A stretch of 64,000 nt of DNA. It comes from Escherichia coli. Lineage in GTDB: Bacteria; Pseudomonadota; Gammaproteobacteria; Enterobacterales; Enterobacteriaceae. The translations under genes were made by a program, and so were the position numbers. The DNA lies in NCBI RefSeq assembly GCF_003991155.1, contig NZ_CP031293.1. The stretch is one strand, 5' to 3'. This document shows, one piece after another, positions 58,769-60,170 of this stretch (its first letter is position 1; every line of letters starts with the position of its first letter). The notes beneath the pieces were generated by a model. That model saw nothing but the letters and a program-made list of their open reading frames with translations. It was not told where the DNA came from and did not search any database.

Positions 58769-59593
58769 TTACTCCAGCGGCATTACCAGCGGATCGGGAT
58801 ACTGGTATTCAAATCCCAGTTCATTACAAATCCGACTGCCATCAATAATCTTACCTTTTCCGCTGTCCAGACTATTTCTGAACTGCGGAGGCTCCAGCCC
58901 CAGTAAACGGGCCATCTGCGGATAGAAAACATTACGCGCAGGGTGAGCTGGCGCACATATATTATAGATGTGTCCGCCTTTAGGTGCCTGTAACAACAGG
59001 GTGATAGCGCCAATAACATCTTCTAAATGGACTAAATTGACACCATGTTCACCATCAGGGGCGGTTTTTCCGGCAAAGAAGCGTCCCGGATGACGTCCCG
59101 GTCCGACCAGGCCCGCAAGACGCAGAATATCGACCGAAGTACCGGGTAAATTGTGCAGCCAGTCTTCGAGTTCTTCTAATACTCGTCCACTGTTGGTTAC
59201 CGGATTACGCGGGGTGGTTTCTTTCACCGTGCCTTGCGCGTCGCCATAGACAGATGTTGAGCTGGTAAAAATAATGCGGGGAATACGATGGGCCAGCGCG
59301 CTATCTACTAACTCTTGTACCGCTTGTAAATAGAACTCATCGCCGGGGCCGCTACGACGTGCCGGAAGCGTAATGACCAGCGCATCGGCATCCATCAGGG
59401 CATCCAGATCGTCAGAATCGCAAACTAACTCAGGCTCCATGCGAAGCAGATAGCTATCAATCCCACTCATTCGGGCCGCTTCGACACCATCTTGTGTGGT
59501 TTTACTCCCGGTGACTTGCCAGCCTCGCGCTGAAAGTGACATCGCCAGCGGCATGCCTAACCACCCTAACCCGACAATTGCGACCTTTTTCAT
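58769..59593 (-). CDS. yeeZ: NAD-dependent epimerase/dehydratase family protein YeeZ
   Basis: 274 aa, Rossmann GxxGxxG N-terminus. Confidence 0.85.
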   Translation of the reverse strand: MKKVAIVGLGWLGMPLAMSLSARGWQVTGSKTTQDGVEAARMSGIDSYLLRMEPELVCDSDDLDALMDADALVITLPARRSGPGDEFYLQAVQELVDSALAHRIPRIIFTSSTSVYGDAQGTVKETTPRNPVTNSGRVLEELEDWLHNLPGTSVDILRLAGLVGPGRHPGRFFAGKTAPDGEHGVNLVHLEDVIGAITLLLQAPKGGHIYNICAPAHPARNVFYPQMARLLGLEPPQFRNSLDSGKGKIIDGSRICNELGFEYQYPDPLVMPLE

Positions 59594-59697
59594 CCGTTAT
59601 CTCCTGATACACCTTAGATCTATAAGGCTACGCTAGCGTATCAAAACTGACAATTCATTCTATGAATGAAATCGAAACTGTTAGCAAATATACAATT

Positions 59698-59796
59698 GCC
59701 TGATGTGCTCCGCTTATCAGTCCTACAAAAACATCAATACATTGAATTTAGGCAATATTTGTAGACCTGATAAGGCATTCACGCCGCATCCGGCAG
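59698..59796. repeat. REP/BIME elements in yeeZ-hisL intergenic region
   Basis: GCCTGATG..CGCTTATCAG..CCTAC and inverted GTAGACCTGATAAGGCATTCACGCCGCATCCGGCAG. Confidence 0.5.
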
Positions 59797-60019
59797 GAAC
59801 AAAGCCCACTTTAGTTACAGAACACAATGTTCTTGAGGGTTTTAAAGACATATTTTCACGATTACTTTTTTAACGTAGCCACTCCTGGCCCCCTCCTTTC
59901 CCCGCTCATTCATTAAACAAATCCATCGCCATAAAATATATAAAAAAGCCCTTGCTTTCTAACGTGAAAGTGGGTTAGGTTAAAAGACATCAGTTGAATA
60001 AACATTCACAGAGACTTTT

Positions 60020-60070
60020 ATGACACGCGTTCAATTTAAACACCACCATCATCACCATCATCCTGACTAG
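60020..60070 (+). CDS. hisL: his operon leader peptide
   Basis: MTRVQFKHHHHHHHPD with seven consecutive His codons. Confidence 0.9.
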   Translation: MTRVQFKHHHHHHHPD

Positions 60071-60170
60071 TCTTTCAGGCGATGTGTGCTGGAAGACATT
60101 CAGATCTTCCAGTGGTGCATGAACGCATGAAAAAGCCCCCGGAAGATCACCTTCCGGGGGCTTTTTTATT
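60071..60170 (+). promoter_or_regulatory. his attenuator including terminator hairpin
   Basis: Hairpin AAAGCCCCCGGAAGATCACCTTCCGGGGGCTTTTTT at 60132-60170. Confidence 0.8.

What the first reader, a model, noticed from the sequence alone, without database searches (positions are those of the whole stretch)
59594..60019. The yeeZ-hisL interval carries REP elements and no yefM-yoeB toxin-antitoxin pair
In E. coli K-12 as I recall it, the yefM-yoeB module lies between yeeZ and the his leader. Here the ~425-bp interval contains two REP-like palindromes and no ORFs, suggesting presence/absence polymorphism of the module at this site.
Basis: partly seen in the sequence, partly recalled or inferred. 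Interest (0 to 1): 0.3.

Follow-up and report, generated by a model that had tools for sequence, protein, structure and literature searches.

The report
Toxin-antitoxin-free yeeZ-hisL spacer with REPs
This E. coli carries the common, already published version of the yeeZ-hisL spacer in which a pair of ordinary repetitive palindromes (a BIME-1 element) sits where K-12 has the yefM-yoeB toxin-antitoxin genes, so the finding is correct but ordinary.

Summary
The spacer between yeeZ (58769-59593, minus strand) and hisL (60020-60070) is 426 bp. It contains two REP palindromes in inverted orientation, at 59698-59726 and 59761-59797, joined by an IHF-type linker, which makes a BIME-1/RIP element. No yefM or yoeB is present here or anywhere else in the 64-kb window.

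K-12 does carry yoeB-yefM at this position. Among 5,426 complete E. coli genomes, about 1,197 (22%) have the window-type allele and about 4,218 (78%) have the toxin-antitoxin allele. The two sets overlap by at most one genome.

This is a replacement, not a simple insertion or deletion. About 211-220 bp (window 59671-59881/59890) stands in for about 652-661 bp in K-12, and the two segments share no detectable similarity. Other enterobacterial genera have a spacer of roughly 175 bp with neither segment. A second Escherichia species carries the BIME allele at the same divergence as yeeZ, so the allele is old.

The polymorphism, including the REPs, was published in 2011 (Iguchi et al., PMC3158064).

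One genome (HH97) looked like a toxin-antitoxin-to-BIME intermediate. It is most likely an assembly chimera, and I rejected it as evidence. Which allele arose first remains unresolved. Interest is low.

The parts
58769..59593 (-). yeeZ (SDR family oxidoreductase), the left boundary gene
   Evidence: 274-aa ORF. Annotated as yeeZ, WP_000754737.1, in the 100%-identical genome 2016C-3878.
59594..59670 (.). Left spacer shared by both E. coli alleles. It is partly homologous to the spacer of other genera (TAAGGCTACGC...CTGACAATTCAT...ATGAATGAA). It holds the -10 hexamer of the only promoter-like match on the yeeZ strand.
   Evidence: 110 of 110 identical to the K-12 type up to 59669/59670. Promoter-like site 59684..59657 on the minus strand scores 9 of 12, which is not above chance.
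59671..59881 (.). Allele-specific segment of the window-type allele. Its right edge is fuzzy (59882-59890). It replaces the 652-661 bp yoeB-yefM segment of K-12.
   Evidence: Pairwise and multiple alignments. At least 80% of it is covered in 1,196 of 5,426 genomes. No significant similarity to the K-12 segment (z = 1.0).
59680..59797 (.). BIME-1 / RIP-type element: a left flank motif, REP-1, an L linker and REP-2
   Evidence: About 80% identical over 120 nt to the torZ-cmoB intergenic element. Matches 19 to at least 40 places per genome in 5,425 of 5,426 genomes. The RNA fold of the minus strand is -35.5 kcal/mol, z = -2.5.
59698..59726 (+). REP-1 (Z1-like palindromic unit): GCCTGATGTGCTCCGCTTATCAGTCCTAC
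   Evidence: Read directly. Matches the recalled Z1 consensus with 3 substitutions by my base-by-base reading, and is found by the consensus scan.
59727..59760 (.). Linker (L motif) with an IHF-type core: ATCAATACATTG at 59733-59744, or ATTCAATGTATTG on the other strand
   Evidence: Sequence. The linker core CAATAnATTGAA(T)TTAG is shared with the torZ-cmoB copy. The match to the IHF consensus WATCAANNNNTTR is my own reading. Binding was not tested.
59761..59797 (-). REP-2 (Y-like palindromic unit, inverted relative to REP-1): CCTGCCGGATGCGGCGTGAATGCCTTATCAGGTCTAC on the minus strand
   Evidence: Inverted repeat I1 with REP-1.
59798..59881 (.). Single-copy sequence specific to the window-type allele, of unknown origin
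   Evidence: Present exactly once in 1,197 of 5,426 genomes at 90-100% identity. No significant similarity to the K-12 segment.
59891..59941 (.). 51-nt segment (CCCTCCTTTCCCCGCTCATTCATTAAACAAATCCATCGCCATAAAATATAT) shared by both E. coli alleles and by Escherichia sp. E1V33. No counterpart is recognisable in the Citrobacter, Kluyvera, Enterobacter, Pseudenterobacter and Lelliottia spacers printed.
   Evidence: Alignments. Outgroup spacers.
59942..60019 (+). Ancestral his promoter and leader start, conserved across genera. The -35 TTGCTT (59952-59957) and -10 TAGGTT (59976-59981) are placed from my knowledge of the his promoter.
   Evidence: Conserved in all outgroup loci. The hexamer assignment is an inference, not a test.
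60020..60070 (+). hisL leader peptide (MTRVQFKHHHHHHHPD), the right boundary gene
   Evidence: Sequence. Annotation in the identical genome. His_leader Rfam match at 60046-60169.

Best explanation
**What it is.** The window carries the minority allele (about 22% of E. coli genomes) of an old, known replacement polymorphism in the divergent yeeZ / his-operon spacer. Most strains, K-12 included, hold the autoregulated yefM-yoeB type II toxin-antitoxin cassette here. This strain instead holds a BIME-1 (RIP-type) repeat followed by about 84-92 bp of allele-specific single-copy DNA. The BIME-1 is two REP palindromes in inverted orientation around an IHF-type linker.

**What follows functionally.**
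- Shown: there is no antitoxin gene, no toxin gene and no recognisable remnant of the K-12 cassette (operator included) anywhere in the window. Genomes with this allele also lack a K-12-type copy elsewhere.
- Inferred: the strain has no YoeB mRNA interferase activity from this locus.
- Inferred: yeeZ cannot be read through from the yefM promoter and must rely on its own promoter in the shared left spacer.
- Inferred from what is known of the family (IHF, gyrase and Pol I binding; hairpins in transcripts): the BIME itself is a non-coding dispersed repeat. It is most likely neutral or at most a local architectural site.
- The his promoter and attenuator are intact and lie outside the variable part.

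**Evolution.**
- Both alleles are derived relative to other enterobacterial genera, whose spacer is about 175 bp with neither segment.
- Both share an Escherichia-specific 51 nt next to the his promoter, so they descend from one altered spacer.
- The toxin-antitoxin cassette is a compact mobile unit running from its operator to the yoeB stop codon (543 bp).
- The BIME allele is at least as old as the split from a sister Escherichia species.
- Inferred: the alleles are shuffled among phylogroups by homologous recombination in the recombination-prone his / O-antigen region.
- Which allele came first is not resolved.
For: **Anatomy.**

**K-12 arrangement and allele boundaries.**

**Population counts.**
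- The 1-kb query around the locus matches 5,423 genomes, of which 1,193 cover it in full.
- The window-specific segment is present in 1,196 genomes.
- Its 84-nt unique part is single-copy in 1,197.
- The toxin-antitoxin segment is in 4,218, never on plasmids.
- The union is 5,414, so the overlap is 0-1.

**Allele diversity.** Both allele classes are diverse: most copies fall in the 95-99% identity band.

**Spread across lineages.**
- Window-type: O157:H7, BL21 and O6:H16; IAI39 and CE10.
- Toxin-antitoxin type: K-12 DH5alpha, O103:H2, O145 and O113:H21; K-12 MG1655 and O111:H8.

**BIME identity.** 19 to at least 40 places per genome and about 80% identity to the torZ-cmoB element.

**No toxin-antitoxin in the window.**

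**Outgroups.** In the 35 loci from other genera where the YeeZ start was found, yeeZ's ATG lies about 110-130 nt from the his -10 region. None has a YefM or YoeB hit.

**Sister species.** Escherichia sp. E1V33 has the BIME allele at 93.2% identity, against 93.7% for yeeZ.

**Cassette limits.** K-12 and Salmonella enterica subsp. salamae share 80% identity over exactly 543 bp, from the operator to the yoeB stop codon. The Salmonella copy sits at a different locus, between genes with DUF1158 and GCS2 Pfam domains.

**Literature.**
- Iguchi 2011 (PMC3158064) already describes the missing yoeB/yefM and the REPs in O157 Sakai.
- Ramisetty et al. 2016 (PMC5120126) describe these cassettes as horizontally moving promoter-plus-ORF units. 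They judge that yeeZ is probably cotranscribed with yefM-yoeB.
Against: - REP/BIME elements usually sit at 3' ends of genes or between convergent genes. Here the element lies between two divergently transcribed genes, which is atypical and unexplained.
- The REP consensus and the IHF consensus I compared against are recalled from memory, not taken from a curated library.
- Nothing here measures IHF binding, transcription of yeeZ, or any fitness effect.
- The order of events (toxin-antitoxin first, BIME first, or both from a lost proto-allele) is not determined. The allele-specific 84-92 nt and the roughly 105 nt K-12-specific stretch upstream of the cassette have no identified origin.
- Divergent yefM/yoeB-family paralogues (below about 85% DNA identity) elsewhere in this strain's genome cannot be excluded from a 64-kb window.
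Confidence: 0.9

Rival explanations
1. Recent simple deletion. This strain's ancestor had the K-12 arrangement and lost yefM-yoeB by a clean deletion, leaving an empty site.
For: Both alleles share identical flanks up to 59670 and from about 59891. That is the pattern a deletion would leave.
Against: - The window holds 211-220 bp that K-12 lacks, with no similarity to the K-12 segment.
- The allele is diverse, mostly 95-99% identical among 1,196 genomes.
- It occurs in O157:H7, BL21, IAI39 and other lineages.
- It is present in another Escherichia species at the same divergence as yeeZ.
Confidence: 0.03
2. Decayed toxin-antitoxin remnant. The window segment, REPs included, descends nucleotide-by-nucleotide from yoeB-yefM, with the HH97 allele as a surviving intermediate.
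For: - HH97 (NZ_CP116409.1) has a 649-bp spacer.
- It aligns at about 75% with yoeB-5'/yefM/operator of K-12 (z = 106).
- By my count it is about 93% identical in aligned blocks to the left part of the window's BIME (z = 31).
- A weak colinear similarity exists between window 59806-59868 and the K-12 operator region (p about 0.035).
Against: - HH97's allele is unique among 5,426 genomes.
- Its junction 19-mer occurs in metagenome contigs only as 4 unrelated chance hits.
- Its 80-aa pseudo-ORF has no relative among 5.8 billion proteins.
- The same window stretch (59774-59868) matches two separate HH97 segments (scores 43 and 30, against shuffle maxima of 18 and 15).
- HH97 has essentially no private bases. 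Of about 270 three-way aligned sites, 1 differs from both parents, while the parents differ from each other at about 71. A natural sister lineage should carry about 27 private changes.
- That is the signature of a consensus or polishing blend of two alleles.
- Without HH97, the window and K-12 segments show no significant similarity (p = 0.04-0.16 for the operator stretch, and not robust to gap settings or to the E1V33 version).
Confidence: 0.04
3. The BIME allele is the older Escherichia state, and the yefM-yoeB cassette later landed in it, displacing the BIME. This is the opposite order to 'toxin-antitoxin first'.
For: - The cassette is a compact mobile unit with sharp limits, found at another locus in Salmonella salamae.
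- These cassettes are described as horizontally transferred into core intergenic regions (PMC5120126).
- The one other Escherichia species recovered (E1V33) has the BIME allele at species-level divergence.
Against: - The toxin-antitoxin allele keeps no trace of the BIME or of the 84-nt unique part.
- It carries about 105 nt of its own non-cassette sequence.
- Only one non-coli Escherichia species was recovered by the scan, so the sampling is too thin to polarise the change.
Confidence: 0.35
4. Artefact of the window. The missing toxin-antitoxin pair is an assembly collapse or error in this sequence.
For: None found.
Against: - The 1-kb region is 100% identical to a finished genome (H1).
- The same structure is present in about 1,197 complete genomes from many laboratories.
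- It is also described in the literature.
Confidence: 0.01

Closest known systems
BIME-1 / RIP (RIB) elements of E. coli: two REP (palindromic unit) sequences of Y and Z1 type in inverted orientation around an L motif that binds IHF
   Same: - Two roughly 30-37-nt imperfect palindromes with the CTAC/GTAG ends, in inverted orientation.
- A 34-nt linker carrying an IHF-type core.
- Extragenic position.
- Dozens of related copies per genome.
   Different: - It lies between two divergently transcribed genes rather than at a 3' end.
- By my reading, each REP has 3 substitutions from the consensus as I recall it.
- IHF binding was not tested.
The yeeZ-hisL toxin-antitoxin-less arrangement of E. coli O157:H7 Sakai (Iguchi et al. 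2011, PMC3158064)
   Same: - The same locus and the same absence of yoeB/yefM, with REP sequences reported in the yeeZ-hisL interval.
- O157:H7 genomes carry the window-type segment at about 95% identity.
   Different: - The window's copy differs by about 5% from the O157:H7 version. It is identical to that of strain 2016C-3878, and its BIME is identical to those of IAI39 and CE10.
- The paper did not give population frequencies or outgroup states.
YefM-YoeB type II toxin-antitoxin module of E. coli K-12
   Same: Only the chromosomal address, between yeeZ and hisL.
   Different: Neither gene nor any recognisable remnant of the K-12 cassette (operator included) is present in the window. This is the alternative allele, not a member of the family.
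Other chromosomal toxin-antitoxin presence/absence polymorphisms in E. coli, such as ccdO157 between folA and apaH (recalled from the literature, not checked here)
   Same: A small toxin-antitoxin cassette occupies a core intergenic spacer in some lineages and not in others.
   Different: Here the toxin-antitoxin-less allele is not a short empty spacer. It carries its own 211-220 bp, including a BIME.

Membership tests
REP / BIME-1 (RIP) repeat family | An imperfect palindrome of about 30-40 nt matching the REP (palindromic unit) consensus, with the conserved GTAG/CTAC end | tested here: met
   59698-59726 and 59761-59797 are found by a scan with the recalled Z1 and Y consensus sequences. By my base-by-base reading each has 3 substitutions. 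The consensus is recalled from memory, which is a weakness. The match to the torZ-cmoB copy is independent support.
REP / BIME-1 (RIP) repeat family | Dispersed, many copies per genome | tested here: met
Every one of those genomes has a place covering at least 80% of the 111-nt query.
REP / BIME-1 (RIP) repeat family | Two units in inverted orientation separated by an L linker with an IHF site | tested here: met
   Inverted repeat I1. The 34-nt linker has the cores ATCAATACATTG / ATTCAATGTATTG. The linker core is shared with the torZ-cmoB copy.
REP / BIME-1 (RIP) repeat family | Actual binding of IHF (and gyrase or Pol I) | not testable with these tools
   Needs a gel shift, footprint or ChIP experiment.
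REP / BIME-1 (RIP) repeat family | Extragenic location | tested here: met
   No CDS is annotated between yeeZ and hisL in the identical genome. The position between divergent genes is atypical but is not a defining criterion.
YefM-YoeB type II toxin-antitoxin module | PhdYeFM-type antitoxin gene (PF02604) | tested here: not met
   tblastn with K-12 YefM against the whole window gives a best E-value of 2.1.
YefM-YoeB type II toxin-antitoxin module | YoeB/Txe toxin gene (PF06769) overlapping the antitoxin gene | tested here: not met
   tblastn with K-12 YoeB gives a best E-value of 0.25, and that hit lies outside the interval.
YefM-YoeB type II toxin-antitoxin module | Operator with paired TGTACA palindromes upstream of yefM | tested here: not met
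   blastn (word size 7) of the K-12 segment against the window finds nothing. Only a non-significant resemblance exists at 59806-59868 (p = 0.035-0.16).

The most novel reading that the evidence does not exclude
The two alleles (a BIME-1 plus unique DNA, versus yefM-yoeB plus unique DNA) could be an ancient trans-species polymorphism kept by selection rather than drift. For example, the toxin-antitoxin pair might help in some niches (bladder colonisation was reported for CFT073) and cost in others. Alternatively, one allele could have been generated from the other by REP-associated (RAYT/TnpA-REP) DNA processing. That would make this a natural case of a BIME displacing, or being displaced by, a toxin-antitoxin cassette.
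Probability: 0.1. Interest if true: 0.35.

Novelty: already known. Interest (0 to 1): 0.1.

Why it matters
It matters little beyond bookkeeping.

- The strain lacks the YoeB mRNA interferase. That is relevant to anyone using it for toxin-antitoxin, persistence or stress work.
- yeeZ sits in a different upstream context from K-12.
- The population numbers (22% against 78%, mutually exclusive), the short ancestral spacer in other genera and the sharp 543-bp limits of the mobile cassette add some detail to a polymorphism that was already published.
- The HH97 case is a practical caution. A 'complete' genome can hold a blended, non-existent allele at a structural polymorphism, and that blend can mimic an evolutionary intermediate.

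Tried and rejected
1. **HH97 as a toxin-antitoxin-to-BIME intermediate.** I followed this in depth and rejected it as a probable assembly or polishing chimera.
   - It is unique among 5,426 genomes.
   - It has no independent support in metagenome contigs or the protein database.
   - One window segment matches it twice.
   - It has about 0 private bases.
2. **Residual homology between the window-specific and K-12-specific segments.**
   - Smith-Waterman alignments with shuffle controls give z = 1.0 overall.
   - The operator stretch gives p = 0.035-0.16.
   - The non-cassette K-12 stretch gives p > 0.3.
   - I did not accept any of these as homology.
3. **CUWW06 as a cryptic-clade outgroup.** Its region is a foreign, Kluyvera-like import, so I did not use it to polarise the change. 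Genus-level outgroups came from the genome-contig scan instead.
4. **A fixed-spacing REP pattern search** found nothing because the spacing was wrong. An edit-distance scan and BLAST replaced it.
5. **REP annotation in NC_000913.3 at torZ-cmoB.** No repeat features were listed in the local copy, so it could not serve as curated support.
6. **Promoter and terminator scans of the interval.** One promoter-like hit, at chance level, and no terminator. These were uninformative.
7. **Rfam.** Only the His leader was found.
8. **Cluster members of YoeB** gave no useful species information.

Full report
**1. The observation**

The window is E. coli. A 1-kb stretch around the finding is 100% identical to strain 2016C-3878.

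yeeZ occupies 58769-59593 on the minus strand, and hisL starts at 60020. The His leader RNA model matches 60046-60169.

It holds two REP-type palindromes:
- REP-1 at 59698-59726;
- REP-2 at 59761-59797 on the opposite strand.

They are separated by a 34-nt linker with an IHF-type core.

These are not chance palindromes. It aligns at about 80% over 120 nt with the element between the convergent genes torZ and cmoB.

Short ORFs of 23-56 aa exist mechanically. None is annotated, and the longest runs through the REPs and is truncated in a related species.

YefM and YoeB have no tblastn hit below E = 0.2 anywhere in the 64 kb. The K-12 toxin-antitoxin DNA has no blastn match in the window.

**2. 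Comparison with K-12 and the species**

In K-12 (DH5alpha; MG1655, row H96) the order is yeeZ, yoeB, yefM, hisL.

The two spacers are identical up to window 59670 and again from about 59882-59891. Between these points the window has 211-220 bp and K-12 has 652-661 bp. Smith-Waterman alignments with shuffle controls find no similarity between the two (z = 1.0). This is therefore a replacement, not a plain insertion or deletion.

Counts among 5,426 complete genomes:

| Query | Genomes with a match |
|---|---|
| Window-specific segment (59671-59881), at least 80% covered | 1,196 |
| Its 84-nt unique part (59798-59881), single copy | 1,197 |
| K-12 toxin-antitoxin segment (never on plasmids) | 4,218 |
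| Either the 84-nt part or yoeB/yefM coding sequence (concatenated query) | 5,414 |

The two sets therefore overlap by 0-1 genome. Strains with the window allele do not keep a K-12-type yefM-yoeB elsewhere.

Both classes are internally diverse, mostly 95-99% identical. Both cut across lineages:
- Window-type: O157:H7, BL21 and O6:H16; IAI39 and CE10.
- Toxin-antitoxin type: K-12 DH5alpha, O103:H2, O145 and O113:H21; K-12 MG1655 and O111:H8.

**3. Ancestral state**

A scan of one genome per species for the his -10 region returned 36 loci.

In Citrobacter, Kluyvera, Enterobacter, Lelliottia and related genera, the yeeZ ATG lies only about 110-130 nt from that motif wherever the YeeZ start was found. 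None has a YefM or YoeB hit. Both E. coli alleles are therefore derived.

Relative to those genera, the window carries an extra 59671-59941. The last 51 nt of that (59891-59941) are shared with the K-12 allele, so the two alleles descend from one altered spacer.

The only other Escherichia species recovered (sp. E1V33) has the BIME allele. It is 93.2% identical to the window's, against 93.7% for yeeZ. The allele is therefore at least as old as that species split.

**4. The toxin-antitoxin cassette as a unit**

The closest non-coli YoeB (92% identity) is in Salmonella enterica subsp. salamae. It sits at a different locus, between genes with DUF1158 and GCS2 domains.

DNA similarity to K-12 (80%) runs for exactly 543 bp, from the operator 40 nt upstream of yefM to the yoeB stop codon. 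This fits published descriptions of such cassettes as promoter-plus-ORF units without a terminator (PMC5120126).

About 105 nt of K-12-specific sequence upstream of the cassette has no identified origin and no similarity to the window. The order of events (toxin-antitoxin first or BIME first) remains open.

**5. A lead that failed**

Strain HH97 has a 649-bp spacer that looked like a decayed yoeB/yefM merging into the BIME. Taken at face value, that would have meant the window's REPs evolved in place from a dying toxin-antitoxin module.

Tests did not support this:
- The allele is unique among 5,426 genomes.
- Its junction k-mer occurs in metagenome contigs only as 4 unrelated hits.
- Its pseudo-ORF has no relative among 5.8 billion proteins.
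- The same 90-nt window stretch matches two different HH97 segments.
- HH97 has practically no bases of its own. One of about 270 aligned sites differs from both parent types, although the parents differ at about 71.
- The neighbourhood also shows a partial yeeE and several protein accessions in a single consecutive new series (WP_2717112xx/3xx), which I read as probably unique to this genome.

The simplest reading is a consensus blend of two alleles in that assembly. I did not use it as evidence.

**6. How it works (mostly inferred)**

The element is a BIME-1/RIP-type non-coding repeat. By family knowledge it can bind IHF and form hairpins in DNA or RNA. The fold is modestly better than shuffles (z = -2.5).

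Nothing suggests a specific role here, and its position between divergent promoters is atypical.

The practical consequences are these:
- There is no YefM-YoeB at this locus.
- yeeZ loses the possibility of read-through from the yefM promoter (judged likely cotranscribed in K-12).
- The his promoter and attenuator are unchanged.

**7. Novelty**

Iguchi et al. 2011 (PMC3158064) already reported that O157 Sakai lacks yoeB and yefM between yeeZ and hisL. They also reported that REP sequences lie in that interval. The finding is correct, ordinary and already known.

Noticed in passing
L005 2852-3295 (E. coli HH97, NZ_CP116409.1 about 2161535-2161978); neighbourhood in L049: The deposited yeeZ-hisL spacer of HH97 is a fine-scale blend of the toxin-antitoxin-type and BIME-type alleles. 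It has about 0 private bases, and one window segment matches it twice. It is probably an assembly or polishing chimera. Nearby there is a partial yeeE and several protein accessions in a single consecutive new series.
   Followed up: yes
L003 (E. coli CUWW06, NZ_CP182139.1 2902481-2908817): This strain's plaP-yeeZ-hisLGDC region is foreign. It has no yeeY and a 178-bp spacer. It is 86-88% identical to Kluyvera loci across the whole stretch, whereas its yeeZ is only 73% identical to E. coli yeeZ. This looks like an inter-genus import. Seven genomes fall in the 80-90% identity band for this locus.
   Followed up: partly
window 59974: The window has G where K-12, Escherichia sp. E1V33 and all outgroup genera have T (GTGGGTTAGG against GTGGTTTAGG). 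The site lies two bases upstream of the presumed his -10 hexamer. Its frequency and effect were not examined.
   Followed up: no
E. coli genome search results: One copy of the window-type yeeZ-hisL segment is recorded on a replicon labelled as a plasmid. This may be a mislabelled chromosome piece or an F-prime-like element.
   Followed up: no
L047 2753-3255 (Salmonella enterica subsp. salamae CP079837.1): A yefM-yoeB cassette 80% identical to the E. coli one sits at a different core locus, between genes with DUF1158 and GCS2 domains and near entD/fepA-like genes. Similarity ends exactly at the operator and at the yoeB stop codon, which defines a 543-bp mobile unit.
   Followed up: partly
window 59723-59851 (minus strand): A 42-aa ORF across REP-2 and the linker stays open in Escherichia sp. 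E1V33 with 3 amino-acid changes. It is most likely a REP-encoded spurious ORF and was not tested further.
   Followed up: partly
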